From a virus (lineage: Duplodnaviria > Caudoviricetes): DNA of 55,987 nucleotides. The notes under the pieces are model-generated. The model did not search any database, was not told the origin of the DNA, and saw nothing but the letters and a program-made list of their open reading frames with translations. The stretch lies in the IMG/VR virus record IMGVR_UViG_3300044675_001342, positions 1 through 55,987 of that record; one strand, given 5' to 3'. The position numbers and the translations under genes are program-made. Positions 316-55,987 of the stretch are shown one piece after another (the stretch's first letter is position 1; the number at the start of each line of letters is the position of its first letter).

Positions 316-344
316 CAAGTCACATCTTTTTATAGGAGAAGTAA

Positions 345-908
345 ATGCCTGATATACAGAGCGAACTGAGCAAAGTCTTAGACGAATGGGACAAACCCAT
401 AGAAGAAAACAATCAACCGGAGAAACAAATGGAAGCAACACCCTTGTTCAGAACAACCAACAACGTGACCCGTGCCACGTTCAACCTAGTCAGGGACAAC
501 GCGGGCATCATGCGCAGGGGTGCAGTGGCCAAGCTGGAAACCTTGGGGTACAAACCAACGTCAACGACAAGCCTTCTAACGCAGATGATGCGCCAGCGTT
601 TGATACGTGTAGAGGCCGATGGTGGGATGCACGCCAACTTCCCCGAGTACACACCACTTAAAGCCAAGCTGCGCAGGGTAATGGCGGACAAGAAACCTGC
701 AAAGGTGAAGGAGGTAAAGCGGACGTACAGCAAGCGCAGCGTTGAGTCCAAAGAAGGCATTGCCGCGTTGCAGCCGCAGGCTACCCCAGCACCCACGCCA
801 AGGACAGCCATCATCACGACCAACTTTAGCGCTGATGCCATCATCAAGAACCTGACCATCTATCAGGCCAAAGAACTGCGCGATGCCCTCAACAACTTGT
901 TCAAATAA
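345..908 (+). CDS. Hypothetical early protein, possibly DNA-binding
   Basis: 187-aa ORF with strong RBS (AGGAGAAGTAAATG); basic central region. Confidence 0.75.
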   Translation: MPDIQSELSKVLDEWDKPIEENNQPEKQMEATPLFRTTNNVTRATFNLVRDNAGIMRRGAVAKLETLGYKPTSTTSLLTQMMRQRLIRVEADGGMHANFPEYTPLKAKLRRVMADKKPAKVKEVKRTYSKRSVESKEGIAALQPQATPAPTPRTAIITTNFSADAIIKNLTIYQAKELRDALNNLFK

Positions 909-912
909 CACC

Positions 913-5659: not shown

Positions 5660-5660
5660 T

Positions 5661-8246: not shown

Positions 8247-9248
8247 AGCAAGGGGTCAGCCATCAACATGCAGAACTTAAAGCGCGGTTCGTTCTTGCGC
8301 AAAGCCATCATGGCCCCTGACGGGTGTCAATTGGTGGTGGGGGATTTGTCCCAAATTGAACCGCGTGTGCTGGCGTGGTTGTCTGACTACGAGGACATGC
8401 TGGACATTTTCCGATCAGGCGCTGACCCATACGCTGCATTTGGTTCGCAGATGTTCAACATCCCCGGCATGACCAAGGAGAGCCATTCTGATCTTCGCCA
8501 ATCGAGCAAGTCTGCTTTACTGGGCTGCGGCTATGGGCTAGGGTGGGCATCGTTCGCGCAGCAGCTTCTGACCGGCTTCCTTGGCGCTCCGCCCGTGCGC
8601 TATGACAAGGACTTCGCCCGCAAGCTGGGCGTGGATGCGGTGTACGTACAGAAGTTCCTTGACTGGGATGACAACGTAATCAAGATGCTGGAGATTCCCC
8701 ACGTTTGTACGGACAAGGAACTGCTGATTCACTGCGTAGCGGCCAAGAAAATCATCGACATCTACCGCAACACGGCGCATCCGGTGGTATCATTTTGGGA
8801 CATGTGCAGCGGCCTGATCGGTTCAGCGCTTGCGCAGGGCAAGGAGTTCAGGTATAAATGCCTGACCTTCAGGAAGGGTGAGATTGAATTGCCTAACGGC
8901 ATGAAGTTGCTGTACCCTGATTTGCGCCAAGTTGAAGATGACAAAGGTAGGAGCCAGTGGGTATACGGGCCAGACGCTACCAAACTCTACGCTGGCAAGA
9001 TAACGAACAACGTAACACAGGCTGTTGCGCGTATCGTTATGACGGATGGGATGCTACGCACATCGAAGAAGTACTTCGTGGCGGGCACGGTGCATGACGA
9101 GCAGATCGTCGTGGTGCCGGATGCAGAGGTTGAATACGCTAAGACTTGGGTTTTGGCGCAAATGACTATGGAGCCACGGTACATGCCGGGGATTCCATTG
9201 AACGCTGACGGTGGTGCGCATCGTCGTTATGGATTAGCAAAAGGATAG
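8169..9248 (+). CDS. polA: Split-intein IntC fused to family A DNA polymerase C-terminal (palm/fingers) part
   Basis: Own RBS GGAGAAG and ATG; VVHN|S junction, then INMQNL, motif A GDLSQIEPR, motif B KSALLGCGYG, motif C VHDE. Confidence 0.93.
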   Translation: MLVPVYDIMNCGPRSRFVANGKVVHNSKGSAINMQNLKRGSFLRKAIMAPDGCQLVVGDLSQIEPRVLAWLSDYEDMLDIFRSGADPYAAFGSQMFNIPGMTKESHSDLRQSSKSALLGCGYGLGWASFAQQLLTGFLGAPPVRYDKDFARKLGVDAVYVQKFLDWDDNVIKMLEIPHVCTDKELLIHCVAAKKIIDIYRNTAHPVVSFWDMCSGLIGSALAQGKEFRYKCLTFRKGEIELPNGMKLLYPDLRQVEDDKGRSQWVYGPDATKLYAGKITNNVTQAVARIVMTDGMLRTSKKYFVAGTVHDEQIVVVPDAEVEYAKTWVLAQMTMEPRYMPGIPLNADGGAHRRYGLAKG

Positions 9249-9257
9249 GAGAAGTAA

Positions 9258-9575
9258 ATGGCAACAAAAGAAAAAAACCCAATTCCATGCAGGCTGCGCA
9301 TTGGGAACAAAAAGTACTCGGTTGAGATTGTCGAAGCCATGCTTAAAAAAGCATGGCAAGGTTCGATTCAGTACGACAACCATCGCATTCAAATCGCCCG
9401 CAACAGCAACGTATCGGGCCGCAGGTTTAAAGACCACGAAATGCACGCTACGTTTTGGCACGAACTCACGCATGCAATCTTGCACGATATGGATCACTCA
9501 CTGCACTTGAACGAAAAGTTTGTGGAAGATTTTTCAACACGACTGGCGCAAGCCGTAAAGACAGCGAGGTTCTAA
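9258..9575 (+). CDS. Small putative Zn-metallopeptidase-like protein
   Basis: TFWHELTHAIL (HExxH) with downstream NEKFV. Confidence 0.7.
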   Translation: MATKEKNPIPCRLRIGNKKYSVEIVEAMLKKAWQGSIQYDNHRIQIARNSNVSGRRFKDHEMHATFWHELTHAILHDMDHSLHLNEKFVEDFSTRLAQAVKTARF

Positions 9576-10241: not shown

Positions 10242-10252
10242 AAGAAAACATC

Positions 10253-10486: not shown

Positions 10487-10501
10487 TTACATGAGAAGCA
10501 A

Positions 10502-12061
10502 ATGCAAATCGTAGAAGATAAAGCCATACTGTTTAAGACACGCAACCCCGAAAAATACAGCATCATCCCAAAACACAAAATCGTCGCCGAGTACGACGAT
10601 GGGTGTGAGATTGCTGTTTACTGGGGGCTGGACGAAGTGCGCGTACTGCGTAACCTCGGAGTCAAGAACGTACCCTCCCCAATCACCAAGCGCTACAACT
10701 GGCCGGGCAAGTACAAGCCGATGGCGCACCAGATTGAGACCGCTGCGTTCCTTACGTTGAACCGCAAAGCCTTCGTGTTCTCTGAACCGGGTACGGGTAA
10801 GACACTCTCAGCGCTGTGGGCTGCGGACTATCTGATGCGCATTGGTAAGGTCAAGCGCTGTTTGATTCTGTGCCCGTTGTCGATCATGCACTCTGCGTGG
10901 TTGGGCGACTTGAACAACAGCATCATCCATCGCTCTGCCGTTGTGGCTCACCATGCGCAGGCTAGTCGGCGTATTGAAATGGTGCAGGAGAACTATGAGT
11001 TCGTGATTGCCAATTACGATGGGTTGAACCTGATAGCCAGTGAGATCGTTGCTGACGGGCGATTTGACTTGGTGATTGTGGACGAGTGCGGAGCATACAA
11101 GACACAGACTACCCGGCGCTGGAAGGTGCTCAAAGCAATCCTCACACCGCAGACCAACTTGTGGATGATGACTGGCACGCCTGCTGCACAGTCGCCAGTG
11201 GATGCATACGGACTGGCCAAGCTAGTTAACCCCGAGGGTGTACCGCAGTTCTTTACAGCGTGGCGCGATAAGGTGGTGTACAAGCTCACCATGTACAAAT
11301 GGGTTCCCAAAAAAGAAGCGAAGGACTTGGTGCATGAAGCGCTGCAACCCTCGATTCGCTTCACCAAAGAAGAGTGCCTTGACCTACCACCAGTGGTAAC
11401 CACCACACGCGAAGTTCCCCTGACCCCGCAGCAGGCCAAGTACTACAACTTGCTCAAAGAGCAAATGCTCATCCAAGCCGCAGGCGAGACAATCAGCGCG
11501 GTCAATGCAGGCGTGGCGATCAATAAGTTGTTGCAGATTTCGTGTGGCGCAGCGTACACAGACGACAAGGGAGTAGTGGAGTTCGACTCTGCCCCACGGC
11601 TGGCTGTGCTCGACGAGATATTGCAGGAGACCAGCCGCAAGGTCATCATCTTTGCGCTGTTTCGCAGCACCATCACTACGGTGTTGGACTACCTGAACAA
11701 GAAGGGCTACGCGGCGGAGTGCATCCACGGTGACGTACCGGCTTCCAAGCGGGGCGATATCATCCGGCGCTTCCAGCATGAGCCCAATCCCCACTTCTTG
11801 GTGATGCAGCCGCAGGCTACCGCCCACGGGATTACCCTAACTGCCGCCGACACGGTGGTGTTCTATGGCCCCCTGATGAGCGTGGAGCAGTACATCCAGT
11901 GTATTGCTCGTTCTGACCGTAAGGGTCAGGACTCCGACAAGGTAACGGTCATCCACATCGAGGGTTCCCCCATTGAGAAAAAGATGTTCAAGGCGCTCAA
12001 TGCAAGGGTGGACGACCACGCCTTGCTAACGCAAATGTTCGATACAGAAATTAAATTATGA
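10502..12061 (+). CDS. SNF2-like superfamily 2 helicase
   Basis: EPGTGKT (Walker A), VIVDE (Walker B), MTGTP, HGITLT, QCIARSDRKGQ. Confidence 0.93.
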   Translation: MQIVEDKAILFKTRNPEKYSIIPKHKIVAEYDDGCEIAVYWGLDEVRVLRNLGVKNVPSPITKRYNWPGKYKPMAHQIETAAFLTLNRKAFVFSEPGTGKTLSALWAADYLMRIGKVKRCLILCPLSIMHSAWLGDLNNSIIHRSAVVAHHAQASRRIEMVQENYEFVIANYDGLNLIASEIVADGRFDLVIVDECGAYKTQTTRRWKVLKAILTPQTNLWMMTGTPAAQSPVDAYGLAKLVNPEGVPQFFTAWRDKVVYKLTMYKWVPKKEAKDLVHEALQPSIRFTKEECLDLPPVVTTTREVPLTPQQAKYYNLLKEQMLIQAAGETISAVNAGVAINKLLQISCGAAYTDDKGVVEFDSAPRLAVLDEILQETSRKVIIFALFRSTITTVLDYLNKKGYAAECIHGDVPASKRGDIIRRFQHEPNPHFLVMQPQATAHGITLTAADTVVFYGPLMSVEQYIQCIARSDRKGQDSDKVTVIHIEGSPIEKKMFKALNARVDDHALLTQMFDTEIKL

Positions 12062-12067
12062 AAGGAG

Positions 12068-12110
12068 TTGCATAGCTTAAAAAATCGTGTAGACTGTCCA
12101 ACCTTAGACA
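12068..12110 (+). promoter_or_regulatory. Putative promoter with overlapping operator copy 2
   Basis: TTGCAT (12068-73), 16 nt, TAGACT (12090-95); TGTCCAACCTTAGACA (12095-12110). Confidence 0.5.
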
Positions 12111-12129
12111 AACAAAACAGGAGAAGTTA

Positions 12130-12531
12130 ATGTCAGAAGAAGCAATCCCGCTGGATAAATTAGCCCTGATCTACCGAAAGATTCGGGATAAGATCGCCGC
12201 GCTGACCAAGGAGTACGACACGCAAGTGGAGTTGCTCAAGGCACAGCAAGACGAAGTTAAATTTGCCATGAAAGACCAGATGAAAGCGCTTGGCGTTAAA
12301 TCTGTTCGCACTGATTTGGGCACAGTAACGCTGACCACAAAGACGCGCTACAACACCCAAGACTGGGACTCGTTCAAGGACTTTGTTCTTGAGCATAGGT
12401 TGGTTGACCTGCTTGAGAAGCGCATTGCGCAGACCAACATGGCGACCTTTCTTTCCGAGAACCCCACCATCGTTCCCCCCGGACTCAACTCGACAACTGA
12501 GTTCGACATCACTGTAACCAAACCACGTTAA
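12130..12531 (+). CDS. Conserved phage replication-module protein
   Basis: Coiled-coil N-terminus, SVRTxxGTV, DWxxF...LLEKRI...PPGL; strong RBS. Confidence 0.8.
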   Translation: MSEEAIPLDKLALIYRKIRDKIAALTKEYDTQVELLKAQQDEVKFAMKDQMKALGVKSVRTDLGTVTLTTKTRYNTQDWDSFKDFVLEHRLVDLLEKRIAQTNMATFLSENPTIVPPGLNSTTEFDITVTKPR

Positions 12532-12544
12532 CCAAGGAAATTAA

Positions 12545-13504: not shown

Positions 13505-13511
13505 TTAATTC

Positions 13512-13593
13512 GGGGGGAAAGCGGATGCTGTGCGGATTGCCAATTGGGGATGGATTCCCGGTTGGTTTGAAACTTAGTGCAGCGAGTACCCCC
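13512..13593 (+). ncRNA. Candidate structured RNA (long hairpin with GAA/AGUA internal loop)
   Basis: GGGGG/CCCCC outer stem; GCUGUGC/GUGCAGC; 11-bp CCAAUUGGGGA/UUCCCGGUUGG; G-U pairs only on the + strand. Confidence 0.55.
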
Positions 13594-13603
13594 ACCTAAA
13601 ACT

Positions 13604-13882
13604 ATGGCCTATTCACAACGCATCAAAGACTTGATACGGACGGCCCCGCGCACTGCGGGCAATACGCTTGGGCGTTGGGCCGTTCACTTAGAGTTTCCCG
13701 TGACAAAACTAGCTTACGCTCTTGGCGTAACTCGGCAGACCATTTATAACTGGTTTGCTGGTGGGGAAGTATTCGTCGCCTATCAACAACGCGTTGACCT
13801 GATGGTTTCCGTCATGTCAACATCAAAAACAGCAGAAGAAGCATGGAGAAGAATATGCAAGGTATACAACCTCAAACCCTGA
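13604..13882 (+). CDS. Cro/XRE-like HTH DNA-binding protein
   Basis: VTKLAYALGVTRQTIYNWFAG helix-turn-helix. Confidence 0.85.
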   Translation: MAYSQRIKDLIRTAPRTAGNTLGRWAVHLEFPVTKLAYALGVTRQTIYNWFAGGEVFVAYQQRVDLMVSVMSTSKTAEEAWRRICKVYNLKP

Positions 13883-14031
13883 CCAACGACGAGTTGGAGC
13901 GCATGGTTTACATCACCGGCCCAGACAAACTGCCTAAAAACTGGGTAGAGGAAGTGCTGCGCCGCACGCTAGCTGACTGGCGTGAGACAAACCCCAAAGA
14001 CCCCGCCCAGCTAAAACTCGACTTCTCTTAA
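13843..14031 (+). CDS. Hypothetical protein
   Basis: 62 aa (start may be 13855); ends QLKLDFS, resembling a beta-clamp-binding motif. Confidence 0.65.
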   Translation: MEKNMQGIQPQTLTNDELERMVYITGPDKLPKNWVEEVLRRTLADWRETNPKDPAQLKLDFS

Positions 14032-14051
14032 ACCATTTCCCAAGGATACCT

Positions 14052-17018
14052 ATGGAACCGCTTGAGTTTCTAGCGGAGGTACTACCACCCCCTGGAAATG
14101 GTAGATACTGTGTTGTTGAACTGCTGACAAAGAAAAAGGAACACTTTTATGTAGATACGTTGGAAGAAGCCATGCCAAAAATAGCGGCGTGGAAACAGCG
14201 GGGGTTAGATGTTTATTTTGCGCTGGGCACGTTTGGAGATTTAAACCGCCGCATTGCAACCAACGTACAAATGGTTCGCTGCATAGCAGTGGATGTGGAC
14301 TGCAATCACCCCAAGGACATACCTGACCCCGAAACGGGAGAGTTGAAAACCAAGGCGTATCCGTCAGCGCAAGTTGCGGCGCAGGCCATCATGCAGTTTG
14401 CTGATGAGGTGGGGCTGTCCGGGTTGGGCAACCCTTGGCTGGTGGCTTCAGGCGGTGGTGTGCATGCATACTGGCCGTTCAAAGAGGCCGTGGATATCAA
14501 CGAGTGGAAGCCAGTGGCCGAGGGGTTCAAGCGCCTGTGCTTTCAAAAGAAGTTGGACATCGACCAGACCATCACGGCAGACGCATCAAGGGTGCTGCGG
14601 GTCTTTGATACGGTCAATACCGGCATCAAGGGAAACAAAAAAGTACGCGAAGTTACCAACGTCAAGTTCAAAAATGCGGGCGACCATTTTGACTTTGCGG
14701 ACATCCGAGCGCTGGTAGAGCGCAACTTGATAGGCACGGCCTACGAAACCAAGGCCCCCAAGGGTGGCGATGGCGGCACTGCGCTAGCGCTGCCGGGTAA
14801 GCGGCCCAGCAAGGATACGACTTCGATCAAGCTGTTTGAAAATAGTTCGACAAAGTTTGAAAATATTTACCGGGCCACCAAGGCTGGCCGGGGCTGCGAA
14901 CAGCTTCGACACTACGCCGAGCATGCGTCCGAGGACGGTATGGAACCGCTATGGCGGGCACACCTGAGCATTGCCCAGAAGTGTGACGATGGCTCCAAGG
15001 CGGCGATATGGCTCAGTAAGCTGCATCCGTACGACGAAGACCGGATGAACACTAAGATGGCCGAAATCAAAGGCCCGTACCCCTGTACCAAATTTGATTC
15101 AGAGAATCCCGGTGTGTGCGTGGGGTGCAGCCACTGGGGCAAGATCACCAATCCGTTGTCGCTGGGCCGGGAAACGGCAGTAAGCACCGAAGCCAAGGTG
15201 GTGGACATCACCCAAGACGATGGCTCAACAGCCAAAATCCTGCGGCCTGAACCGCCACGAGGGTATGCCTACGGGCAGCACGGCGGTGTGTTCATGGAGC
15301 GTGACGACGAGGATGCCGATGGCAACAAGACCAAGCGCCAGATTATGCTGCTGCCGTTTGACCTATTCCCGCTGGACATCCTGAACATCAACGGCGACCA
15401 TACTGTGTACATGGTGGCGCTGCGCAAGTCCGGCCCGCAGGAAGTCACCCTCCCCCAACGGGCCGTGGTCAGCAAAGACGATACGCTGAAGAGCTTGGCC
15501 ACGCAGAACATCATTGCTGCCTTCGGGGCGGGCAACGACAAAAACCTGTTTGACTACGTGCGGGCCGCAGTGGAAAAGCTCAGTAGTGAACGTGCCCCGC
15601 TGGATGTGCCTGACCACTATGGGTGGCAGACTGACGGTAGCTTTGTTCATGCGGGTATGGTGTACAAGGCCAACGAGGAGCCCAACAAAATCCCGCTTCC
15701 GGGGCTGGAAAACATTGTCAAAAACACGCAGATGACGGGCACGATGGAGAACTGGCTCAGGTTCATAAATCTGCTGGTGTCGCGCAAGCTGTGGGATCAA
15801 CTAGCCGTTATTTTCCTTGGCGCTGGGGCTCCGCTGATGCGCTTTACGGGGTTGTACGGGCTGACCATCCACTGCTGCTCCACCGAGTCTGGCACGGGTA
15901 AGTCACTGGCGCTGGACGGCGCGGCATCCATATGGGGGCATCCGACCCACTACCGCGCTGGCTCGGGCACTTCTCCTGTGGCGATGCAGCACCGCCTTGG
16001 CCTGCTGCACAGCATGCCAATGATTACAGACGAGATTACAACCACCAACCACAAGGACTTTGAGTGGTTCCCCGGCATGACCATGACGGTCAGCGAGGGG
16101 CGGGGCAAGGAGCGCATGGAGTCCGGCTCAAACAAAGAGCGGTTGAACTTATCCACATGGGCCACCTTTGCGCTACTGTCATCGAACACCCATGCCGTGG
16201 ACTACATGACCGGAGCGCGTAAGCACTCCTCGGAGGGGGAACTGCGCCGAGTGTTGGAATGGATAATGGACGAGAAGCTGTCATGGAGCCCCGAAGAAAT
16301 TGAAATAATCAAATCCTTACAGGAAAATTACGCGGTAGCCGGTGATGTGTGGGCGCAGTACATGGTGGACAACGTGGATGCGGTCAAGAAAATGACTAAG
16401 GAAACCGTGACCCAGATGTACAAGGTTTACACCGCGCCCAACGATGAGCGTTTTTGGATGGCTGGGGTAGGCTGCGCAGTGACCGCCGCGCTGTGTTTTG
16501 GCAGTAAGTACGCTGGCATAGTTGACGTACCTATTGAACCTCTGATAGAGAGCTACCGCCGCAGCATCAACACGATACGCACCGCCATGAAAACGGGCAA
16601 GCGCACCGCTGAGGACATCCTTAACGGCTTCATACAGGAGCACTACGGCAAGTTCGTCATCGTGCATTTTGGCGACAAGGCTGGGCCTATGGCAAGGCTG
16701 GGGGACAGCAGCGCAGTGGACAAGAACACTACCCGAGCGCAGATCATGGGGCGCATCGAGCACGGCCTGACCGTGGGGTACGTGGACTTTTACATCGAGG
16801 AGCGCACCCTCAAGTCATACTGCTCCAATCACAGCTTTGGCTACGCCACGCTCAAGACCCACCTTGAAAAGCAGTTTGTGGTGTCGTACATCGGTAAGAA
16901 GGACATGATGGCCAAAACCAACGGCCCGCCAATGCGGGTGGGCGTCATCAAGATTTCGCGGGAAGAAGACCAGCTTGACGAAGAAATTAAAAATCCGTTG
17001 GCCTTGGCCGCAACTTAA
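14052..17018 (+). CDS. Primase-helicase (AEP/RepB-like primase + DUF927-like helicase)
   Basis: VDVD, SGGGVHAYW, DxSRVLR primase motifs; Cys cluster; ESGTGKS Walker A, ITDE Walker B, GRGKER. Confidence 0.88.
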   Translation: MEPLEFLAEVLPPPGNGRYCVVELLTKKKEHFYVDTLEEAMPKIAAWKQRGLDVYFALGTFGDLNRRIATNVQMVRCIAVDVDCNHPKDIPDPETGELKTKAYPSAQVAAQAIMQFADEVGLSGLGNPWLVASGGGVHAYWPFKEAVDINEWKPVAEGFKRLCFQKKLDIDQTITADASRVLRVFDTVNTGIKGNKKVREVTNVKFKNAGDHFDFADIRALVERNLIGTAYETKAPKGGDGGTALALPGKRPSKDTTSIKLFENSSTKFENIYRATKAGRGCEQLRHYAEHASEDGMEPLWRAHLSIAQKCDDGSKAAIWLSKLHPYDEDRMNTKMAEIKGPYPCTKFDSENPGVCVGCSHWGKITNPLSLGRETAVSTEAKVVDITQDDGSTAKILRPEPPRGYAYGQHGGVFMERDDEDADGNKTKRQIMLLPFDLFPLDILNINGDHTVYMVALRKSGPQEVTLPQRAVVSKDDTLKSLATQNIIAAFGAGNDKNLFDYVRAAVEKLSSERAPLDVPDHYGWQTDGSFVHAGMVYKANEEPNKIPLPGLENIVKNTQMTGTMENWLRFINLLVSRKLWDQLAVIFLGAGAPLMRFTGLYGLTIHCCSTESGTGKSLALDGAASIWGHPTHYRAGSGTSPVAMQHRLGLLHSMPMITDEITTTNHKDFEWFPGMTMTVSEGRGKERMESGSNKERLNLSTWATFALLSSNTHAVDYMTGARKHSSEGELRRVLEWIMDEKLSWSPEEIEIIKSLQENYAVAGDVWAQYMVDNVDAVKKMTKETVTQMYKVYTAPNDERFWMAGVGCAVTAALCFGSKYAGIVDVPIEPLIESYRRSINTIRTAMKTGKRTAEDILNGFIQEHYGKFVIVHFGDKAGPMARLGDSSAVDKNTTRAQIMGRIEHGLTVGYVDFYIEERTLKSYCSNHSFGYATLKTHLEKQFVVSYIGKKDMMAKTNGPPMRVGVIKISREEDQLDEEIKNPLALAAT

Positions 17019-46066: not shown

Positions 46067-46153
46067 TGGTGGAAGTGGAAAGATTCGAACTCTCTCACCC
46101 TAACGAGAACGGGGTTACAGCCCGTTGCGCCTCTCCAACTGCGCCGCACTTCC
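46067..46153 (-). tRNA. trnY: tRNA-Tyr(GUA)
   Basis: Cloverleaf: GGAAGTG/CACTTCC acceptor, ACGGG-CTGTAAC-CCCGT anticodon arm, long variable arm, TTCGAAT loop, encoded CCA. Confidence 0.93.
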
Positions 46154-46173
46154 GTGCGGTCAATATCGTTGAT

Positions 46174-46251
46174 TGGTCTGTGCGGCAGGATTTGAACCTG
46201 CGACCCCTCGGTTCCAAACCGAGAACTCTGACCAGACTGAGCTACGCACAG
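46174..46251 (-). tRNA. trnP: tRNA-Pro(UGG)
   Basis: CTGTGCG/CGCACAG acceptor (C1-G72, A73), CTCGG-TTTGGAA-CCGAG anticodon arm, TTCAAAT loop, encoded CCA. Confidence 0.95.
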
Positions 46252-49302: not shown

Positions 49303-50242
49303 TTTGATTCTCCAATCGAGCTACTTGAACAGCGTATTGCTGTGGGGTTAAACCGAATTTCTTTGCTAACGCCACTTGCGTGGTAGTCAGCCGAACTTTA
49401 CCTCCGCTCGTAGAACGAGACGCAGAAGCAACCACGGTAGTAGGCCGTTTGGAAACCTCACCGGACGTAGGCCTATCCTTGGCTCCACCGAATAATTCGG
49501 GGAACGAAGACTTCATGCGAGAATCAATTTTCTCGAAATAATCATCAGAGCGAGGATCAACCCCGTTTTGTACTAGCTTTTTGTGCAGCCCTAGTGCGTA
49601 GCTGGTGTATTCCTCAAAACCTTCCGATCCGTACCACTGGTTTCTTGCCTGCCAGCGCAGTGATTTTTCATCCGGTACAGGGGGTCTTGTTTGGACTTGG
49701 GGCGTTTGTACCTCAAATTCTTCCTGCTGTAAAGGGGGTGGACGAAAATTTTTCGTCTGTTCCATCCGAATTTTGGCATCCATCACCGCTTCTTGGGCCT
49801 CAAGGATGGCGTCGTTATCGAACGCTTCCTGTGCTGCCTTTAGATTGCGACGGGCCATTTCAAGTGCGGTCTCCGCCTTTTGCTGTTCACCAGCAATGAC
49901 GGCTTCGTGCCCTTTGTATACGTTGTTTTTGAGGTTTTTGTTCTCGGCCAGCAACTGTTGTGTAAAACGCTCAAGCTCTTGCTTTTCCCGCAAAACGGCT
50001 TCCTTGTTCCGGCGCTCGTCGTGACGGGCGTGGGTAAGTTCCTTGATGCGGTTTTTTACTTTGTCGGAGTACGACTCAATTTCGTCGTCGGTGGGGTCAG
50101 CCACTTCCCGATCCAAAGGCTTGCGGCCTCGGTCACGTTCAGGGGTGTCGTCCTCGATTTCAACTTCAAGATCAACATCGCCTTCAATTTCAATGTCGAT
50201 TTTCTTTTCGTCCAGTTCGTCTGGAAATTTAAATGCGTCCAT
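49295..50242 (-). CDS. Putative scaffolding protein
   Basis: Acidic N-terminus, coiled coil, C-terminal LTxxQVALAKKFGL...YA. Confidence 0.75.
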   Translation of the reverse strand: MDAFKFPDELDEKKIDIEIEGDVDLEVEIEDDTPERDRGRKPLDREVADPTDDEIESYSDKVKNRIKELTHARHDERRNKEAVLREKQELERFTQQLLAENKNLKNNVYKGHEAVIAGEQQKAETALEMARRNLKAAQEAFDNDAILEAQEAVMDAKIRMEQTKNFRPPPLQQEEFEVQTPQVQTRPPVPDEKSLRWQARNQWYGSEGFEEYTSYALGLHKKLVQNGVDPRSDDYFEKIDSRMKSSFPELFGGAKDRPTSGEVSKRPTTVVASASRSTSGGKVRLTTTQVALAKKFGLTPQQYAVQVARLENQNG

Positions 50243-50252
50243 ATATACTCCT

Positions 50253-50687
50253 TTAAGCGCGGGTTAAACCGCGAGGGTCTTGCACAACAGCATCAACTTG
50301 GTCGTCGTTGATGAGACGGAACTCTTTTCCAAAAATCTTAAAGCGTGTACCTGAATAGGTACGTACCAGCACGAAGTCACCTTCTTTGCACCACGCTCCG
50401 GTTGGGAACTTGGCTTTATCGGTGTATGCATCGGGGCCTGCACGTATCACAAATAGCACCGTAGTGGCGTGTTCTTCTTGGCGCAAACTTGCTGTATCTC
50501 GGACGAGATCAAGCGATGTCCCTGCGATTTTCTGATCGACTTCAGGCACTACGCACAGTAGCTTCCAACCCGTTGGGATAGGTAGCGCTCCAGCTTTTGT
50601 TTCTTCACTAGCATCCGCATCCGGTGTTTCCATCGGCTGGATGTGGTTGGGCAAACTAATGCCCGGTGGCAGGATGATTTCACTCAT
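50253..50687 (-). CDS. groES: GroES-like co-chaperonin
   Basis: PTGWKLL, GPDAY, KEGDFVL..YSGT, RLINDDQV: GroES fold pattern. Confidence 0.8.
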   Translation of the reverse strand: MSEIILPPGISLPNHIQPMETPDADASEETKAGALPIPTGWKLLCVVPEVDQKIAGTSLDLVRDTASLRQEEHATTVLFVIRAGPDAYTDKAKFPTGAWCKEGDFVLVRTYSGTRFKIFGKEFRLINDDQVDAVVQDPRGLTRA

Positions 50688-50874
50688 TGGATTTTTCAAC
50701 TTTCTCAAGCAGGTCAAGTAGATGGCGCTCTGCAAGTGCTAGACCTGAGATAGTCCCGCAGAGTTTTTGGTAATCTTCAAAGTTGCGACACACACCCGCA
50801 GCCAAGTCATCGGCGTAGTTGTTCATGTCGGTGCGTATTTTTTCGCGCAATACGCGTGCGAAGTCTTGGATCAT
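50680..50874 (-). CDS. Hypothetical protein
   Basis: 64 aa; Y..L.G.I.GL motif common after the portal in such phages. Confidence 0.75.
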   Translation of the reverse strand: MIQDFARVLREKIRTDMNNYADDLAAGVCRNFEDYQKLCGTISGLALAERHLLDLLEKVEKSNE

Positions 50875-53390
50875 TTAGTTGGTTTCTCCGATGTTTTGGC
50901 AATCTGTGCTAAGAACTGCTGTTGCTGGTTGTGAGCTTGGTCTCTGCTCTTGGCAACGTCGATGCCCATACGAACACCGTCTCGTTGTTGTTGCGCGGCT
51001 AACTGGGCCTCGTTGTTTTTGGTTTGCATTCCAACTTTCATTGCTTCTAACTGCAAGTTGCCCGAGACTTTTTTCTCTTCCAACTTGAGCTTGTCCGCGT
51101 TGAGCGCTGCGTCCGCAGCTATCTTGGCCGCTTTGAGCTTGAGGTCTTCCTGCTTTATCTGGTTGACCCCGGCCTTGATTTGCAACTCTTGCTGCTGCAT
51201 CTGAATCACCGGGTCTTGTGCCTGCTGCTGGGCTTGCGCCTGCGCGGCTTGTGCTTGGTTCTGCTGCATAACTTGCTGCGCTGCTTGAGCCAGCATGCCA
51301 GACAAGGCCACTTCGATTTGCGGAGGGAGCTTCTCGTCTTCGGGAGGCATAGGCATACCCAACTGCTGCTCGATTTGCTGGCGCATTTTGTACCCAACGT
51401 GCTCAGCGATGTGCGCAGTGATGGCCCCCATGATCTTGGGAGCCTGCGGATTTTGGCCAATCATTTGCTGAATCAGCGGGTCTTGCAGCAGCATCATGTG
51501 GACTTGCATGTGCGCGTCATGGTTCTGGTACATGAACGCTTTCACAGGCTTGCCATTAAGCGTTGCTTGGTTCTCCGACACAGGATCGGTGGGCTTCATG
51601 TCCTCTTCGATTGGCACCAACTTTTCAGCGTTTTTGATGCCCAAAACATCCAACATCCCACGGTGCAACTGGGGCAAGTCGTAGATGTCGGGGGCCATCT
51701 GGGCCATCTGAATGACCGCTTGGTATTGGATGACGCGTTGGCTCAGGGTGGCTGCGTTGGGGTCAGAGACGGGGATGATGTCCACCAAGTCGTAGTCACC
51801 GCGCTTTGCTTTCTTGTTGCCGTACTCAGGGTTGTATGTGTAGTCCGGGTCGGTGTAATCGCGGATGATTATTTTGAGCAGCTTTAACTCTTGCTTGAGG
51901 GCGTAGTGGACGCGGGCCTGTACCGCCGACATCACTTTAAGCTGGCGCTCCAGCAGCGCTAGTGTCGTGCCCACCGGGGCATTGGCCGACATGTCAGACA
52001 CCTTCATATCCGCCGTGGACGCAAACCTGCGGCCCTCATCAACGATCTGGCCCAGCAACGCCATCAGAACTTGGCTTGGCTCCTTGTATGGCAGGGGTAG
52101 GATACTGTCGCGGATGTTGCCGCTTGCCACATCGGCATCACGCCACTCGCCCGGAGCAATCGGAGTGTCATCACCCTTGATGCGCAGGCCACGGGATTTC
52201 AAACCACCGGGCAAGTTGGACAACGTACCCGCGTCCACAAGCTGGCGCATGAGGGAGGTGGCCGACTTAGCATAACCACCAATCAGGTGAAATAGGCCAA
52301 AGCCGTAGGCCCCAAAGCCGGGGATGTACTGGTAGTGAACAAAGTGCTGGCGCTTGAGCCGGTACTCGTCGTCTTCCAACCAGTTACGGCGGATGGACAG
52401 CACATCGTTGGTTCCTTTTATTAGGGTTACTACGTAGGGAAGCATGATTCCCGTAGGCTCGTCCTCGTCGTCCTTGTCCTCGTACCCTTCCAAATCCAAG
52501 TCCACATGGCACTCGTACAGGGTGTACCGGTCGTCGTTCAAATCGTTAAACCCGGTTTCCTTGTCCTTGGCTTTTTGAATGTCCGTGCGATCTTTGGGCG
52601 CGTCGGGCAACTCGATGTCCAGATAAAACCCAGCCTGCTGGAGCTTGATGATTTCGTTCTTGGTCTTGCGCATGACATGCGTGATGCGGTGGCAAGTATC
52701 CAAGTCGGTCGTACCGTAGGGCAGGAGGATGTCCTCGGCTGGAATAAACATCGACACCTGACGGCCAAGGCTTGGGTCGTAGTACACTTTTTTGAACGCC
52801 GAACCAGTGGCCGGAAGGCTCCACAGCATGCGCTCATGCTCGGGCCGGAACTCCGCCATCGTTTCAGTTAATTCAAAGTTCATGTCCTCCTGCACCCGAG
52901 CAGCGGCTTCTTTTACCTGTGGAGTGTCCAGTCCGATGATCTTGGTTTTGACCGGCCCAGCGGCAGGAAACGTTTCAGTAATCGTTTCACTTTGGAACCT
53001 TACAACGGCCTCGGTAATCATCGGATGGAACACACCGCAAGCACCTTGCCACGGCTCCGTGCGCTCCTCAATCTGAAGGCCCAGCAATTTAAGCCCGTCC
53101 ACGTAGGCTTTCTCCCACTCCTTGCGTGAGGACTTGTCGTTGCCGATGTCCGAGTCCAAATCCCCCGCCATGCTCTGCATGTCGCCCTCGTTCATATACT
53201 CGGCCAAGTTGTCGCTAAAGCCTTCCTCGCCTTCGTCTTCACCGGGCTTTAGGCTAATTTCCAAGCCATCCATACCAATGTTGACTTCCTCCGGGTCAAT
53301 AATCTCAATCTCCAGCGGTGACTCATCTTCTGCAAGCGCGTCAATCCCCATTGGTTGCTGGTATAGGGCTTTGTCTACATTGGTGGCCAT
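50871..53390 (-). CDS. Portal protein
   Basis: 839 aa after terL; GSAFKKVYYD, GFGAYGFG, LVDAGTLSN; Q-rich C-terminal barrel. Confidence 0.88.
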   Translation of the reverse strand: MATNVDKALYQQPMGIDALAEDESPLEIEIIDPEEVNIGMDGLEISLKPGEDEGEEGFSDNLAEYMNEGDMQSMAGDLDSDIGNDKSSRKEWEKAYVDGLKLLGLQIEERTEPWQGACGVFHPMITEAVVRFQSETITETFPAAGPVKTKIIGLDTPQVKEAAARVQEDMNFELTETMAEFRPEHERMLWSLPATGSAFKKVYYDPSLGRQVSMFIPAEDILLPYGTTDLDTCHRITHVMRKTKNEIIKLQQAGFYLDIELPDAPKDRTDIQKAKDKETGFNDLNDDRYTLYECHVDLDLEGYEDKDDEDEPTGIMLPYVVTLIKGTNDVLSIRRNWLEDDEYRLKRQHFVHYQYIPGFGAYGFGLFHLIGGYAKSATSLMRQLVDAGTLSNLPGGLKSRGLRIKGDDTPIAPGEWRDADVASGNIRDSILPLPYKEPSQVLMALLGQIVDEGRRFASTADMKVSDMSANAPVGTTLALLERQLKVMSAVQARVHYALKQELKLLKIIIRDYTDPDYTYNPEYGNKKAKRGDYDLVDIIPVSDPNAATLSQRVIQYQAVIQMAQMAPDIYDLPQLHRGMLDVLGIKNAEKLVPIEEDMKPTDPVSENQATLNGKPVKAFMYQNHDAHMQVHMMLLQDPLIQQMIGQNPQAPKIMGAITAHIAEHVGYKMRQQIEQQLGMPMPPEDEKLPPQIEVALSGMLAQAAQQVMQQNQAQAAQAQAQQQAQDPVIQMQQQELQIKAGVNQIKQEDLKLKAAKIAADAALNADKLKLEEKKVSGNLQLEAMKVGMQTKNNEAQLAAQQQRDGVRMGIDVAKSRDQAHNQQQQFLAQIAKTSEKPTK

Positions 53391-53399
53391 GATCTGTCC

Positions 53400-54941
53400 T
53401 TAGTAATAAGCCGCCGCTCTGCGACGGAACAATTTGGGTTCGTCTTTCTCATCCGTGTCCAACGTGATAAACCCGCCTTGGCGAAACCGCATCAGCGCTT
53501 GGCTGGTTGTGTCCACGTAATCGTCATTATCACCGTTGGGGAAGGCCGCGACCTCCTCAATAACTTCCCGCGCCCAGCGCGTATCCGGTGCCCACACTCT
53601 ACCCGAAGCAAACAAATCGGCAATGGCGTTGACCCGCACGATCTTGTCGTTGCCCCGGCTGGGACTGAACTCCTGCACCGGGATGCCCATAACCCGCAGT
53701 TCTTGGATCAGCGGTGCCCCAGCGGCTTTTTTCTCCACAATGATGGAGTCGGGCTCCCACTCCTTGTAGTGCTTGAAAGCTATGGCCTTGAGTTCAGGAA
53801 ATTCCATCCGGTCTTTGAACGCGTCCAGCAGTATGATTTGCGCTTCGTCGCGCTCATTTTCGTTGTAGAACACGCCCCATGTGGTGCAGGCTGAATAGTC
53901 GGCCCTGCTCTTGGCTTCAAAGGCCGTGTCCCACGACTGGATGATGTACTCACACTTGGGCGGCTCCTCGGGCTCCCATATGCGCCAGAGCTTGCGGGAA
54001 ATTATGGCGGCGGCGTTGCTTGTGGGCTGTTGCATGTACTGGGCGTTCCAGTACTGGGGGTCGATGGATGCCTTGGTTGTCTTCAAGGTGGCCAGCGGCC
54101 ACTGCTCTGGCCAGAGGGATTTCTCGTCCTCGGTGCCATCGTTCAAGATGGCCGGAAGCTCCACAATCTCCCACGGCAGGGAGTCCGGGTTGCGGCTTTG
54201 GTAGTCAATCAGCCGCCCGGTCAGGTCAAGCTTGCCCCAGCGCGTCATCACAATAATGATTGCCCCTCCGGGCATCAGGCGCTGCAACGGGCCAGTCTGG
54301 AACCAACTCCATGCCGTGTCAAAAGCTAGGCGGCTGTTGGCCTTTACGTCCTGCTCCGAGTGCGGGTCGTCGATCACAAACAAGTCCGCGCCACGACCGG
54401 CAAGCGCACCGCCCACACCCGCAGCGTAGTACTGGCCCCCTGCGGCGGTACTCCATTTACCCGCAGCCTTTTGGTCGTCGGCCACCACCGTCTTTGGAAA
54501 AATCTCACCGTAGTCTTCGCTGTCGATCAAGTTACGCACCCGGCGACCAAAGTCCTCGGACAGTCCAGCGGTGTGGGTGCCCATGATGATTTTCTTCTCG
54601 GGGAACTTGCCAAGGAAGTAGGCCGGGAACAAGTAGCTGCTAAATTCTGACTTACCCATACGCGGGGCGATGTTGATGATGACGCGTAGTTTGCGCCCCT
54701 CAATCACGTCTGTGAATATTTTGGCCAGCTTTCTGTGGTGCGGGCCGCTCTTAAACCCCGGATACACCGAGTTGGCAAACCCAATCATGTTGTTCTGCGC
54801 GGCCAACAGCCGGGCTCGGCGCTCACGTACCTCCAAGTCCTCAAACAACTCCATCTTCTCGGCCAACGTCATGGTTGGCAGAGCCTTCACAAGTGCGGCA
54901 ATCTCAGCTTTTGTCAGCGTGGTGATGTTTTCAAGCTGCAT
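53400..54941 (-). CDS. terL: Terminase large subunit
   Basis: APRMGKS Walker A, VIDDP Walker B, YMQQP, SWDTA, DYSA, NDDYVD nuclease motifs. Confidence 0.95.
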   Translation of the reverse strand: MQLENITTLTKAEIAALVKALPTMTLAEKMELFEDLEVRERRARLLAAQNNMIGFANSVYPGFKSGPHHRKLAKIFTDVIEGRKLRVIINIAPRMGKSEFSSYLFPAYFLGKFPEKKIIMGTHTAGLSEDFGRRVRNLIDSEDYGEIFPKTVVADDQKAAGKWSTAAGGQYYAAGVGGALAGRGADLFVIDDPHSEQDVKANSRLAFDTAWSWFQTGPLQRLMPGGAIIIVMTRWGKLDLTGRLIDYQSRNPDSLPWEIVELPAILNDGTEDEKSLWPEQWPLATLKTTKASIDPQYWNAQYMQQPTSNAAAIISRKLWRIWEPEEPPKCEYIIQSWDTAFEAKSRADYSACTTWGVFYNENERDEAQIILLDAFKDRMEFPELKAIAFKHYKEWEPDSIIVEKKAAGAPLIQELRVMGIPVQEFSPSRGNDKIVRVNAIADLFASGRVWAPDTRWAREVIEEVAAFPNGDNDDYVDTTSQALMRFRQGGFITLDTDEKDEPKLFRRRAAAYY

Positions 54942-55554
54942 CTGGGGCTGGCGTTGGGTTGTCCGTAATGATTCTGGCCGTGGGGATGTCAATATCTATG
55001 TCAGTGACCTCAACGGCGTCCACCACCCCCATGAACTTGGCCAACTTGTCCTTGATGCGCTGGTCAAGCTCGTTGTCGGTGAGCGCTTCCTTCTTGATTT
55101 CAATCTTTTCGGTGAACAACCCCACCTCGGTGACTTTACCAAGCGCTGTAAGAGCCTTGAGCCGGATACTGGCGTTGGGGTTCTTGGTTTCCTCCACCAA
55201 CTGGGCCACACAGTAGCCACGCAGTTGCTGCGCTTGGTGAATAAACTCCCAGTCGTAGGCTGTCAGCATGCTTACTAAGTGCTGGACAGCGGCGGGAGCC
55301 TTAATGTTGCTCAGGGAGCTTTTTGTCAGTTCGGTTGGCTGGCCGGTAATGATGTTGGTAAATGCCGCACGGGCAAAAGTGGCTTGCGCTTGATCCACTA
55401 CCTCGTCTTCGTCCACTGCGCCCAGACTTTTGAGCCAGTTGGCCGTCTCCACCTTGGCGTCCACGACCTGATTCACCCCCGCTTTGTTCAGCGGTGTGTA
55501 GGGTTCATCGAAAAGCTCGATGTCCGGCTCGTATTCAATTAAATGTTCCAACAT
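54931..55554 (-). CDS. terS: Putative terminase small subunit
   Basis: Directly upstream of terL; RLKALxxLGK...GLF.E motif. Confidence 0.7.
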   Translation of the reverse strand: MLEHLIEYEPDIELFDEPYTPLNKAGVNQVVDAKVETANWLKSLGAVDEDEVVDQAQATFARAAFTNIITGQPTELTKSSLSNIKAPAAVQHLVSMLTAYDWEFIHQAQQLRGYCVAQLVEETKNPNASIRLKALTALGKVTEVGLFTEKIEIKKEALTDNELDQRIKDKLAKFMGVVDAVEVTDIDIDIPTARIITDNPTPAPDAA

Positions 55555-55564
55555 GCGTAAGCCC

Positions 55565-55613
55565 TTGCAGCCTCGTTGGGGGAAGTATATACTCAGTTCC
55601 GGTGATTGTGCAA
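55565..55613. promoter_or_regulatory. Overlapping divergent promoters sharing a palindromic -10 region
   Basis: + strand TTGCAG-17-TATACT; - strand TTGCAC-18-TATACT; palindrome AGTATATACT at 55584-55593. Confidence 0.6.
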
Positions 55614-55692
55614 TTTTTTGTGCATTTGCTTCTCCCTGAGTGGGCCTGACGGCTCATTTTTAAACCCTTGGTTTGCGCCGAGGGTTTTTTTT
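55600..55692 (+). ncRNA. Candidate trans-acting small RNA with anti-RBS seed
   Basis: Promoter upstream, terminator downstream, no + strand ORF; seed UGCAUUUGCUUCUCC complementary to early-gene RBS/AUG regions. Confidence 0.55.
55662..55692 (+). terminator. Rho-independent terminator
   Basis: AAACCCTTGG-TTTGCG-CCGAGGG followed by T8; the U-G pair works only on the + strand. Confidence 0.8.
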
Positions 55693-55701
55693 ATGGGTAT
55701 T

Positions 55702-55717
55702 TGTCAATAGTTAGACA
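55702..55717. promoter_or_regulatory. Putative operator, TGTC-N8-GACA copy 3
   Basis: TGTCAATAGTTAGACA (reverse complement TGTCTAACTATTGACA). Confidence 0.5.
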
Positions 55718-55987
55718 AGGGTTTACCCTAATTTTTGTAGTAGTTTTTGGGGGTGACGTTGTTTTTCGGAGACGGGGGGTGTTCTGGGATTTTTAAAATT
55801 TTGATTTGCGGGTGCTAAACACTGTTATGTCGGAGCGGCGGCGGTGACGGCCTAATAGGGCTTCCGGGGGTACGGTGGGGTCGCCAAACCCCCGTTTTCG
55901 GGGTCAATTTGCCCTCAATCCGGTGCCAACTTGGCTATCAAACCATGCCATCCGGATAATGGATATTGTCAGTGGGGCTTTCCCCTG

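What the first reader, a model, noticed from the sequence alone, without database searches (positions are those of the whole stretch)
55600..55692. Candidate phage small RNA whose seed matches the RBS+AUG of multiple early/replication genes
Seen: a promoter-to-terminator unit of about 90 nt with a U-rich 5' part, seed UGCAUUUGCUUCUCC (55621-55635), a hairpin and a U8 terminator. The seed's complement GGAGAAGCAAATGCA matches the helicase start perfectly over 14 nt (10493-10506); gene 345 over 14 nt with one G-U (335-348); gene 9258 over 13 nt with one G-U (9248-9260); gene 12130 with one mismatch (12120-12133); and the IntC-polymerase start with a 1-nt bulge (8160-8172). Late genes mostly use AGGAGT/AAGGAA/AAGGAC SDs that pair poorly. 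Established: the layout resembles Hfq-type sRNAs that occlude RBSs. Inference: a single trans-acting RNA, made back-to-back with the late promoter, shuts down replication-gene translation, including one half of the split polymerase. Alternative: the seed is just a - strand RBS+ATG for a 10-codon ORF (MHKKLHNHRN).
Basis: partly seen in the sequence, partly recalled or inferred. Interest (0 to 1): 0.85.

Follow-up and report, generated by a model that had tools for sequence, protein, structure and literature searches.

The report
Conserved phage small RNA against early-gene start sites
Next to the late-gene promoter of an uncultured phage lies a conserved gene for a small RNA of about 95 bases whose exposed stretch is the mirror image of the ribosome-landing sequence shared by many early genes, so it probably shuts off early protein synthesis, though nobody has yet seen the RNA.

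Summary
At 55599-55692 (+) there is a promoter-to-terminator unit, divergent from terS. It folds into three hairpins on the + strand (-37.1 kcal/mol, z -5.3) against -21 on the - strand.

The unit is a family, not a chance feature. A covariance model finds one copy, always antisense to terS, in 55 related viral loci and one per relative genome. 21 of 26 base pairs show compensatory changes.

Its promoter shares a -10 region, palindromic in about half the sequences, with the terS promoter on the other strand.

The near-invariant single-stranded core is UUCUCCU, extended to UUGCUUCUCCU. The anti-AUG part is not conserved and lies inside hairpin 1.

Its complement, (A)GGAGAAGCAA, is the extended Shine-Dalgarno motif of a subset of early genes. 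77 of 390 early start regions pair at -18 kcal/mol or better, against 5 of 228 late ones. The same ortholog groups are hit across genomes, and the seed variant tracks the early-gene variant imperfectly (odds ratio 10, p 2e-4).

The - strand micro-ORF is not conserved.

Best reading (0.55): a trans-acting RNA that represses early-gene translation, an RNA counterpart of T4 RegA. Expression, timing and repression are untested.

The parts
55565..55593 (+). Proposed promoter of the small RNA: -35 TTGCAG (55565-55570), 17-nt spacer, -10 TATACT (55588-55593)
   Evidence: Read from the sequence. Among 37 unique relatives, the -10 reads TAnnnT in 37 of 37 and a TTGnnn -35 lies 16-18 nt away in 34 of 37. 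The most distant clade has TTGACA-18-TATATT. The transcription start is inferred, not measured.
55584..55593 (.). 10-nt palindrome AGTATATACT that carries the -10 hexamers of both divergent promoters
   Evidence: The 10-mer is fully palindromic in 20 of 37 unique relatives, as AGTATATACT or AGTGTACACT.
55584..55612 (-). Promoter of terS and the late operon: TGCACA-17-TATACT
   Evidence: Listed by the promoter scan. In relatives the -35 reads (T)TGCAC or TTGCGC, and the -10 reads TAnnnT in 35 of 37.
55599..55692 (+). Small RNA gene of about 94 nt
   Evidence: Covariance model R1 scores it 109.5 bits, and it is the only match in the window. Folding.
55601..55630 (+). Hairpin 1. Its outer stem pairs the RNA's 5' end (GGUGA) with UUGCU of the 'seed'
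   Evidence: In helix 1, 8 of 12 pairs show changes on both sides across 34 sequences.
55621..55637 (+). Seed region UGCAUUUGCUUCUCCCU; the unpaired core is UCUCCCU (55631-55637)
   Evidence: The columns UUCUCCU are 91-100% conserved in 81 unique family members, while the upstream CAU columns are 40-64% conserved. Opening the 13-15 nt seed costs 8.3-9.6 kcal/mol; opening the linker costs 2.3.
55638..55659 (+). Hairpin 2, variable in sequence but kept as a structure
   Evidence: In helix 2, 5 of 5 pairs show changes on both sides.
55662..55692 (+). Intrinsic terminator: 11-pair stem plus U8
   Evidence: A T run of 6 or more follows the hairpin in all 37 unique viral relatives, only in this orientation. 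In helix 3, 8 of 9 pairs show changes on both sides.
55593..55625 (-).
   Evidence: the ATG is present in 30 of 37 sequences, lengths are 4-90 codons, and 5 are in frame with terS; an ATG follows GGAG in 45 of 82 unique seeds.
54931..55554 (-). terS-like first gene of the late arm. This protein anchored the search for relatives
   Evidence: terL (53400-54992) was identified.
10492..10506 (+). Predicted target: start region of the SNF2-type helicase gene (14 nt perfect, -22.9 kcal/mol)
   Evidence: Its ortholog group is hit in 3 of 6 genomes.
335..349 (+). Predicted target: start region of gene 345 (187 aa, no known family), -22.8 kcal/mol
   Evidence: Its ortholog group is hit in 8 of 12 genomes.
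9248..9262 (+). Predicted target: start region of gene 9258 (105 aa), -21.2 kcal/mol
   Evidence: Its ortholog group is hit in 5 of 7 genomes.
12120..12134 (+). Predicted target: start region of gene 12130 (133 aa), -17.9 kcal/mol
   Evidence: Its ortholog group is hit in 5 of 7 genomes, including the variant-seed genome G001.
13845..13859 (+). Predicted target: start region of ORF 13855 (58 aa), -19.0 kcal/mol
55701..55718 (.). Operator-like palindrome TTGTC-N8-GACAA just past the terminator
   Evidence: A similar palindrome lies at the same place in many relatives (read by eye). Its function is unknown.
55931..55960 (+). Early promoter-like site TTGGCT-18-GATAAT, ahead of the first early gene, which starts beyond the window's end
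   Evidence: Locus L002 extends 2567 nt past the window and shows + strand genes there.

Best explanation
The unit at 55599-55692 is the gene of a phage small RNA of about 94 nt.

**Proposed mechanism.**
- It is transcribed rightwards from a sigma-70-type promoter. The -10 hexamer of that promoter overlaps, inside a 10-nt palindrome, the -10 of the leftward terS (late operon) promoter. RNA polymerase can therefore serve only one of the two at a time on one template.
- The RNA has three hairpins and ends at an intrinsic terminator.
- Between hairpins 1 and 2 it exposes UUCUCCU. The adjoining UUUGC lies in the weak, G-U-rich outer stem of hairpin 1.
- This stretch is complementary to (A)GGAGAAGCAA(AUG), an extended Shine-Dalgarno-plus-spacer motif carried by a subset of early and replication genes: 345, 9258, helicase 10502, 12130, 13855 and 4373. 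Late genes hardly carry it.
- The proposal is that the exposed anti-SD core nucleates pairing, the duplex spreads into hairpin 1, and the ribosome-binding site is blocked. One RNA would then turn down a regulon of early proteins.

**Status of each step.**
- Shown by comparison: the unit, its orientation, its structure and its complementarity to the early motif.
- Inferred: transcription, timing, repression and any chaperone.
For: **1. The unit is a family.**
- Model R1 finds the unit once in the window.
- It also finds it in 55 of 63 loci that carry terS relatives, always antisense to terS and just upstream of it.
- In the fetched parts of 15 relative genomes it matches once in each of 14; one further match scores E 0.2.
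- A cruder script scan finds the unit in 74 of 77 metagenome loci with enough flank.

**2. The structure covaries.**
- 93.6% of cells are paired, against 43-53% when partners are slid.
- 21 of 26 pairs change on both sides.
- 0 of 500 shuffles reach this.

**3. The + strand is the RNA strand.**
- The + strand fold is more stable in 33 of 37 sequences, with means of -37.2 against -29.8 kcal/mol.
- A U tract follows the last hairpin only in this orientation.

**4. The promoter is kept.** The -10 is kept in 37 of 37 and the -35 in 34 of 37.

**5. Selection acts on the seed sequence.**
- UUCUCCU is 91-100% conserved in 81 unique sequences, while hairpin 2 and the terminator vary freely.
- The seed's distance from the terS -35 varies by up to about 40 nt because of insertions in hairpin 1. 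That argues against a DNA site whose action depends on its position.

**6. Early genes are hit, late genes are not.**
- 77 of 390 early start regions reach -18 kcal/mol, against 5 of 228 late ones, in 16 genomes or fragments.
- 81 of 457 early start regions reach it in 25 metagenome loci.
- In the window the figures are 6 of 31 early and 1 of 35 late.
- The real seed matches or beats 94% or more of the pseudo-seeds made from the genome's own early start regions in 8 of 16 genomes, and beats all of them in 5.

**7. The same genes are hit across genomes.**
- Hit: 12130 group 5 of 7, 345 group 8 of 12, 9258 group 5 of 7, 4373 group 4 of 6, helicase 3 of 6.
- Never hit: the groups of 12545, 14052 and 9576.

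**8. Seed and targets vary together.**
- G001: seed complement GGAGAGTAG, with 6 early genes carrying AAGGAGAGT.
- G006: seed complement GAGAGAAAGCAAATGG, with one early gene carrying GAGAGAAAcCAAATGG.
- G005: seed complement GCATCTG, with helicase GCATCTTG and another gene GCATCATG.
- AAGC-type against AAAGC-type seeds: 26 and 17 matching start regions against 3 and 20. Odds ratio 10.2, p 2.3e-4, not corrected for relatedness.
Against: - **The seed is partly buried.** Half of the 15-nt seed is paired in hairpin 1. Opening it costs 8.3-9.6 kcal/mol.
- **The anti-AUG part is not conserved.** It is present in 45 of 82 unique seeds.
- **Covariation is imperfect.**
  - 6 of 29 AAGC-seed genomes carry more AAAGC-type start regions, and 10 are ties.
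  - L275, L256 and G014 have no site at the threshold, and G015 has none that fits its own seed variant.
  - These are fragments holding 5-10 kb of the early arm.
- **A strand-specific test failed.** Changes that keep wobble pairs (17 at 374 sites) are no commoner than those that break pairs (19 at 315 sites), p 0.40.
- **A shared motif predicts the same matches.** Every complementarity statistic is also expected if the - strand simply carries one more copy of the early start-region motif. Only the RNA-gene anatomy argues for pairing.
- **The gene calls are crude.** They are my own and pick starts partly by likeness to a Shine-Dalgarno sequence.
- **The statistics are not fully independent.** The relatives are related to each other, so counts and p values overstate independence.
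Confidence: 0.55

Rival explanations
1. The small transcription unit is real, but what matters is the act of transcription. The rightward promoter competes with, or insulates, the overlapping terS promoter, and the terminator stops polymerase from running into the early region. The RNA is a by-product, or it acts on host messages rather than phage ones.
For: - The two promoters overlap completely and share the -10 palindrome.
- The terminator lies about 240 nt upstream of the early promoter-like site.
- The host is unknown, so host targets cannot be examined.
Against: - It does not explain why UUCUCCU and the adjoining GCUU are nearly invariant while hairpin 2 and the terminator drift.
- It does not explain why the seed complement is closer to the centre of the early start-region family than almost any real start region.
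- It does not explain why seed variants go with early-gene variants.
Confidence: 0.2
2. The RNA is the terminated leader of a longer rightward transcript. An antiterminator lets polymerase read through into the early or middle genes, as with the short RNA made from the lambda late promoter (recalled, not checked here).
For: - The unit has the same orientation as the early genes that follow it.
- It has a strong terminator.
- An operator-like palindrome lies right behind it.
Against: - A separate early promoter-like site lies downstream at 55931-55960.
- No antiterminator family was found among the 30 early proteins scanned. Most of them match no family at all.
- It does not explain the complementarity to early start regions.
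Confidence: 0.1
3. The conserved motif acts as DNA, as a binding site for a late activator or an UP-like element of the terS promoter. It lies about 46-58 bp upstream of the inferred terS start.
For: - Its position in the window is typical for activator or UP sites. This rests on established knowledge of promoters, not on a test here.
- It is A-rich on the terS strand.
Against: - Insertions of 10 to about 36 nt in hairpin 1 move the motif by uneven amounts in L016, L017, L018, L021, L024 and L028.
- In the L061 clade the promoters are arranged differently, yet the RNA unit is kept.
- Compensatory changes in three helices point to RNA.
Confidence: 0.07
4. The - strand motif is a working ribosome-binding site plus AUG for a leader peptide upstream of terS.
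For: - On the - strand, GGAGAAGCAAATG is a near-ideal start region followed by a 10-codon ORF.
- In 5 of 37 relatives the ATG is in frame with terS.
Against: - The ATG is missing in 7 of 37 viral sequences and 37 of 82 unique seeds.
- ORF length runs from 4 to 90 codons, and the frame shifts with the length of the hairpin loop.
- The motif lies upstream of the terS promoter.
- It gives no explanation for the + strand terminator.
Confidence: 0.05

Closest known systems
T4 RegA translational repressor
   Same: A phage product that competes with the ribosome at the start regions of many (about 30) early and middle messages. The sites overlap or lie just 5' of the AUG (passages read in PMC3014915). 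The proposed job is the same.
   Different: RegA is a 122-aa protein that recognises A+U-rich single-stranded sites. Here the agent would be an RNA that recognises an extended Shine-Dalgarno motif by base pairing. There is no homology.
c4 antisense RNA of phages P1 and P7
   Same: A phage RNA that blocks translation by pairing around a ribosome-binding site, with its function depending on its structure (passages read in PMC12197685).
   Different: - c4 acts on one message (ant) for immunity.
- Here many early genes carry the site.
- The gene sits beside the late promoter of a phage in which no lysogeny module was looked for.
CU-rich anti-RBS small RNAs of Betaproteobacteria: 'toxic small RNA'/double-hairpin RNAs (RF02278), anti-hemB (RF02837)
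   Same: - Short RNAs with an unpaired CU-rich stretch complementary to ribosome-binding sites, then a terminator hairpin.
- Most of their predicted interactions fall on start regions (passages read in PMC5688073, and PMC1950547).
- The window RNA gives weak matches on the + strand.
   Different: - Scores are far below the family cut-offs: 25.3 against 49.5 bits, and 17.5 against 50.
- The first hairpin of anti-hemB is absent.
- Those are cellular RNAs, whereas this one is phage-borne and tied to the terS promoter.
Bidirectional bacterial promoters with overlapping -10 elements
   Same: Two divergent promoters that use a symmetric -10 region.
   Different: Here the pairing of one small-RNA promoter with the late-operon promoter is conserved across a phage family. 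The spacing between the two starts is only inferred.

Membership tests
Rfam RF02837 anti-hemB | Score at or above the family's gathering cut-off (49.5 bits) | tested here: not met
   25.3 bits, E 3.7e-4 on a 221-nt search. The first hairpin of the model is deleted in the alignment.
Rfam RF02278 Betaproteobacteria toxic small RNA | Score at or above the gathering cut-off (50 bits) | tested here: not met
   17.5 bits, E 0.24.
Any Rfam 15 family | A match at gathering score anywhere in the window | tested here: not met
   Only two tRNAs, at 46070-46251, reach gathering score.
Trans-acting base-pairing small RNA (Hfq-type layout) | Own promoter and intrinsic terminator with a U tail | tested here: met
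   conserved in relatives. This rests on sequence only, with no transcript data.
Trans-acting base-pairing small RNA (Hfq-type layout) | Conserved, at least partly single-stranded seed that is complementary to target start regions | tested here: met
   Half of the long seed is paired.
Trans-acting base-pairing small RNA (Hfq-type layout) | Binding to Hfq or ProQ, and repression of targets | not testable with these tools
   The host is unknown. No chaperone family was found among the 30 early proteins scanned.
Cis-antisense RNA (such as P22 sar or lambda OOP; recalled) | Overlaps its target gene on the opposite strand | tested here: not met
   The RNA lies upstream of the terS promoter. It overlaps only a micro-ORF that is not conserved.
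Leader peptide / upstream ORF | Start codon and reading frame conserved | tested here: not met
   The ATG is present in 30 of 37 sequences and 45 of 82 unique seeds. Lengths are 4-90 codons.

The most novel reading that the evidence does not exclude
An RNA counterpart of T4 RegA that works as a timing switch. The same symmetric promoter fires the late operon in one direction and, in the other, a small RNA whose anti-Shine-Dalgarno core silences a regulon of early genes. That regulon is marked by a private, extended ribosome-binding motif. Seed, self-masking hairpin arm and regulon motif drift together across an uncultured freshwater phage family.
Probability: 0.4. Interest if true: 0.8.

Novelty: new variant of a known kind. 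Interest (0 to 1): 0.68.

Why it matters
- **A known job done a new way.** Phages are known to shut off early proteins with proteins such as T4 RegA, and they carry a few antisense RNAs aimed at single genes. A small RNA that addresses a whole class of the phage's own early genes through a shared ribosome-binding motif would be a new way of building the early-to-late switch.
- **It may explain a feature of the genome.** Early and late genes of this phage use different Shine-Dalgarno styles, and this reading would account for that.
- **A usable family.** There are more than 100 natural variants. They give a ready-made series of seed and target changes for testing the rules of RNA targeting.
- **Search for earlier descriptions.** Two full-text searches turned up no description of such a phage RNA. 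I looked only at listings and the starts of abstracts.

Tried and rejected
- **RNA evidence.** The look-up of sequencing runs listed no RNA holder. It gave two aquatic runs marked 'RNA? (probably DNA)' that held 0.05 of the words. Laid on 50000-55987, they gave short contig pieces, mostly 85-95% alike, that is, relatives. They say nothing about starts, ends or strand. No conclusion on expression.
- **Cultured relatives.**
  - blastn of 55400-55987 and tblastn of terS against 50,697 phage records found nothing.
  - terL and the helicase reach only 53% and 41% identity at best.
  - The terL neighbourhoods of Phage DSL-LC04 and Pelagibacter phage HTVC027P are laid out differently and give no match to model R1.
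- **A wasted scan.** A 15-mer scan of viral contigs returned 118 unrelated stretches, because the pattern was too short.
- **Alignment without structure.** MAFFT plus RNAalifold on all 37 sequences recovered only the terminator. A model built from 8 close sequences was needed.
- **Seed swap.** The swap matrix based on longest common substring did not discriminate, because most seeds are too alike.
- **Position-by-position comparison.** Mean identity of seed tails to anchored start regions was not clearly highest for a genome's own seed.
- **Wobble-asymmetry test.** Not significant.
- **Early proteins.** Pfam and PHROGs scans of 30 early proteins found no RNA chaperone, RegA-like protein or antiterminator family.

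Full report
**Setting.** The window is a whole IMG/VR virus record: 55,987 bases, linear, estimated 88% complete. Genes on the + strand fill 345-17018. They include an RtcB ligase, a family A DNA polymerase in two parts, an SNF2-type helicase and a primase/helicase-like protein. Genes on the - strand fill 17129-55554, starting from a terS-like gene (54931-55554) and terL. The finding lies in the gap upstream of terS, on the opposite strand. Locus L002 is identical in terS and reaches 2,567 bases beyond the window's right end. It shows that + strand early genes follow. The region 55555-55960 is therefore the divergent control region between the late and early arms.

**The observation.**
- The + strand RNA folds into three hairpins, the last an 11-pair terminator with a U8 tail: -37.1 kcal/mol, z -5.29. 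The - strand gives -21.0, z -2.06.
- The promoter scan lists a - strand promoter TGCACA-17-TATACT at 55612..55584, aimed at terS.
- On the + strand I read TTGCAG-17-TATACT at 55565-55593.
- The two -10 hexamers overlap inside the palindrome AGTATATACT (55584-55593).
- The seed complement has 9 matches with at most 3 mismatches in the window, against 2.08 expected.

**A conserved RNA gene.**
- A search with the terS protein gave 63 viral loci at 48-100% identity. In almost all of them the same layout lies upstream of terS on the other strand.
- I collected 37 distinct sequences. Each folds into hairpin 1, an unpaired CU-rich linker, hairpin 2 and a terminator.
- The + orientation is the more stable in 33 of 37.
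- A covariance model built from 8 close sequences finds one match in the window. It also matches 55 of the 63 loci, all antisense to terS. In the fetched parts of 15 relative genomes it matches once in each of 14, with one further match at E 0.2.
- Misses: L041 (only 90 nt of flank), L049, L059 and L063 (cut loci), and L048, L056, L057 and L060, whose hairpin 1 differs.
- On the model-guided alignment of 34 sequences, 93.6% of cells pair against 43-53% for slid partners. 21 of 26 pairs change on both sides, and no shuffle of 500 comes near. That alignment is fitted to the model, which favours the structure. The slid controls share that bias.
- The promoter is kept: -10 TAnnnT in 37 of 37, -35 TTGnnn in 34 of 37. 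The terS -10 lies in the same 10-mer in 35 of 37.
- A further scan of metagenome contigs gave 80 loci. A script found the unit in 74 of the 77 with enough flank. Two of the three misses visibly carry it with a broken T run.

**What is conserved in the RNA.**
- Across 81 unique sequences the columns UUCUCCU are 91-100% conserved. The GC and UUU before them are 64-79% conserved, and the CAU only 40-64%.
- The outer stem of hairpin 1 pairs the RNA's 5' end with UUGCU of the seed and covaries. One example is GUAGC with GCUAC in the L061 clade.
- So the reliably exposed part is the anti-Shine-Dalgarno core. The part complementary to spacer and AUG is masked by a weak stem. Opening it costs 8.3-9.6 kcal/mol, against 2.3 for the linker.

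**The micro-ORF.** The - strand ATG is present in 30 of 37 viral sequences and 45 of 82 unique seeds. ORF length runs from 4 to 90 codons, and the frame changes with the hairpin loop. It also lies upstream of the terS promoter. I reject it.

**Targets.**
- With my own crude gene calls I scored duplexes between a 21-nt seed region and each start region (-25 to +8).
- In the window the best sites are helicase 10502 (-22.9), 345 (-22.8), 9258 (-21.2), 13855 (-19.0), 4373 (-18.1) and 12130 (-17.9). There is also one doubtful call at 142 and one late gene at 29090.
- Over 16 genomes or fragments, 77 of 390 early and 5 of 228 late start regions reach -18 kcal/mol.
- In 25 metagenome loci, 81 of 457 early start regions do.
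- Keeping the anti-SD part and shuffling the rest of the seed lowers the count. In the window the mean is 0.73, and 0 of 60 shuffles reach 6.
- Pseudo-seeds made from the genome's own early start regions rarely do as well. None does in 5 genomes, and at most 6% do in 3 more.
- Ortholog groups behave consistently. Five groups are hit in half or more of the genomes, and three are never hit.

**Do seed and targets change together?**
- Partly.
- Clear cases are G001, G005, G006 and the AAAGC class.
- Over 41 genomes or fragments the AAGC or AAAGC type of the seed goes with the type of the early start regions: odds ratio 10.2, p 2.3e-4.
- The sequences are related, so this overstates independence. 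In addition, 6 of 29 AAGC-seed genomes go the other way.
- L275, L256 and G014 show no site, and G015 shows none that fits its own variant.
- A test that should favour RNA pairing specifically, an excess of changes that keep wobble pairs, was not significant.

**What this leaves open.** Every complementarity result would also follow if the - strand merely carried one more copy of the early motif. What argues for pairing is the anatomy:
- a promoter and a one-way terminator around the motif;
- three covarying hairpins;
- strand asymmetry of the fold;
- loss of the ATG in many members;
- free variation of the motif's distance from the terS promoter.

I therefore hold that the small-RNA gene is real with about 0.85 confidence. 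The specific mechanism, repression of early-gene translation in trans, I put at 0.55.

**Comparison with known systems.**
- No Rfam family reaches its cut-off.
- The best weak matches, on the + strand, are to two betaproteobacterial CU-rich RNAs, anti-hemB and the 'toxic small RNA'. The literature describes their unpaired CU-rich stretches as complementary to ribosome-binding sites (passages in PMC5688073 and PMC1950547). This is a likeness of design, not membership.
- In function the nearest thing is T4 RegA, a protein (PMC3014915). Among phage RNAs it is c4 of P1/P7 (PMC12197685).
- Two full-text searches did not show a phage RNA aimed at a shared start-region motif of many of its own early genes (listings only).

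**Limits.**
- There is no transcript evidence.
- The host is unknown and there is no cultured relative.
- The gene calls are crude, and the statistics are not corrected for relatedness.

Noticed in passing
window 275-291, 12094-12111, 55701-55718: Three perfect TTGTC-N8-GACA palindromes, all between genes. One overlaps the -35 of the strong promoter of gene 345. One lies just upstream of gene 12130. One lies right behind the small RNA's terminator. A like palindrome lies at that last place in many relatives. It looks like an operator for a dimeric regulator. Two of the three flank top predicted RNA targets.
   Followed up: partly
window 6225-9248: The family A DNA polymerase is in two ORFs (6225-7538 and 8169-9248), separated by an ORF that matches HNH endonuclease families (7372-8175).
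   Followed up: partly
window 1528-2718: An RtcB RNA ligase gene (Pfam E 2e-128) lies in the early arm. Together with the two phage tRNA genes it hints at tRNA repair.
   Followed up: no
window 46067-46251 (-): tRNA-Tyr(GTA) and tRNA-Pro(TGG) genes lie inside the late arm.
   Followed up: no
window 330-347 and 9243-9260: Genes 345 and 9258 share an identical 16-nt start region, ATAGGAGAAGTAAATG, although the sequence upstream of it differs.
   Followed up: no
window 419-433: An in-frame internal GGAGAAACAAATG lies inside gene 345, 84 nt after its start. It may be a second start, or the true one.
   Followed up: no
L002 2020-2085 (beyond the window's right end): Three tandem copies of a 20-nt unit lie just after the first early gene. 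They resemble iterons.
   Followed up: no
L017 288-417, L024 2824-2949, L028 2830-2956: Three relatives carry the same extra hairpin (a stem around TTTGGCTTTCAGCCAAA) inserted into hairpin 1 of the small RNA. A similar stem appears in several metagenome members.
   Followed up: no
window 284-320: The near-consensus sigma-70 promoter TTGACA-18-TATAGT lies ahead of gene 345. It is the best promoter match in the early arm (11 of 12).
   Followed up: no
window 13604-13882: A small early ORF gives weak, sub-threshold matches to Cro/YdaS-type helix-turn-helix domains. It is a candidate for the protein that binds the palindromes.
   Followed up: no
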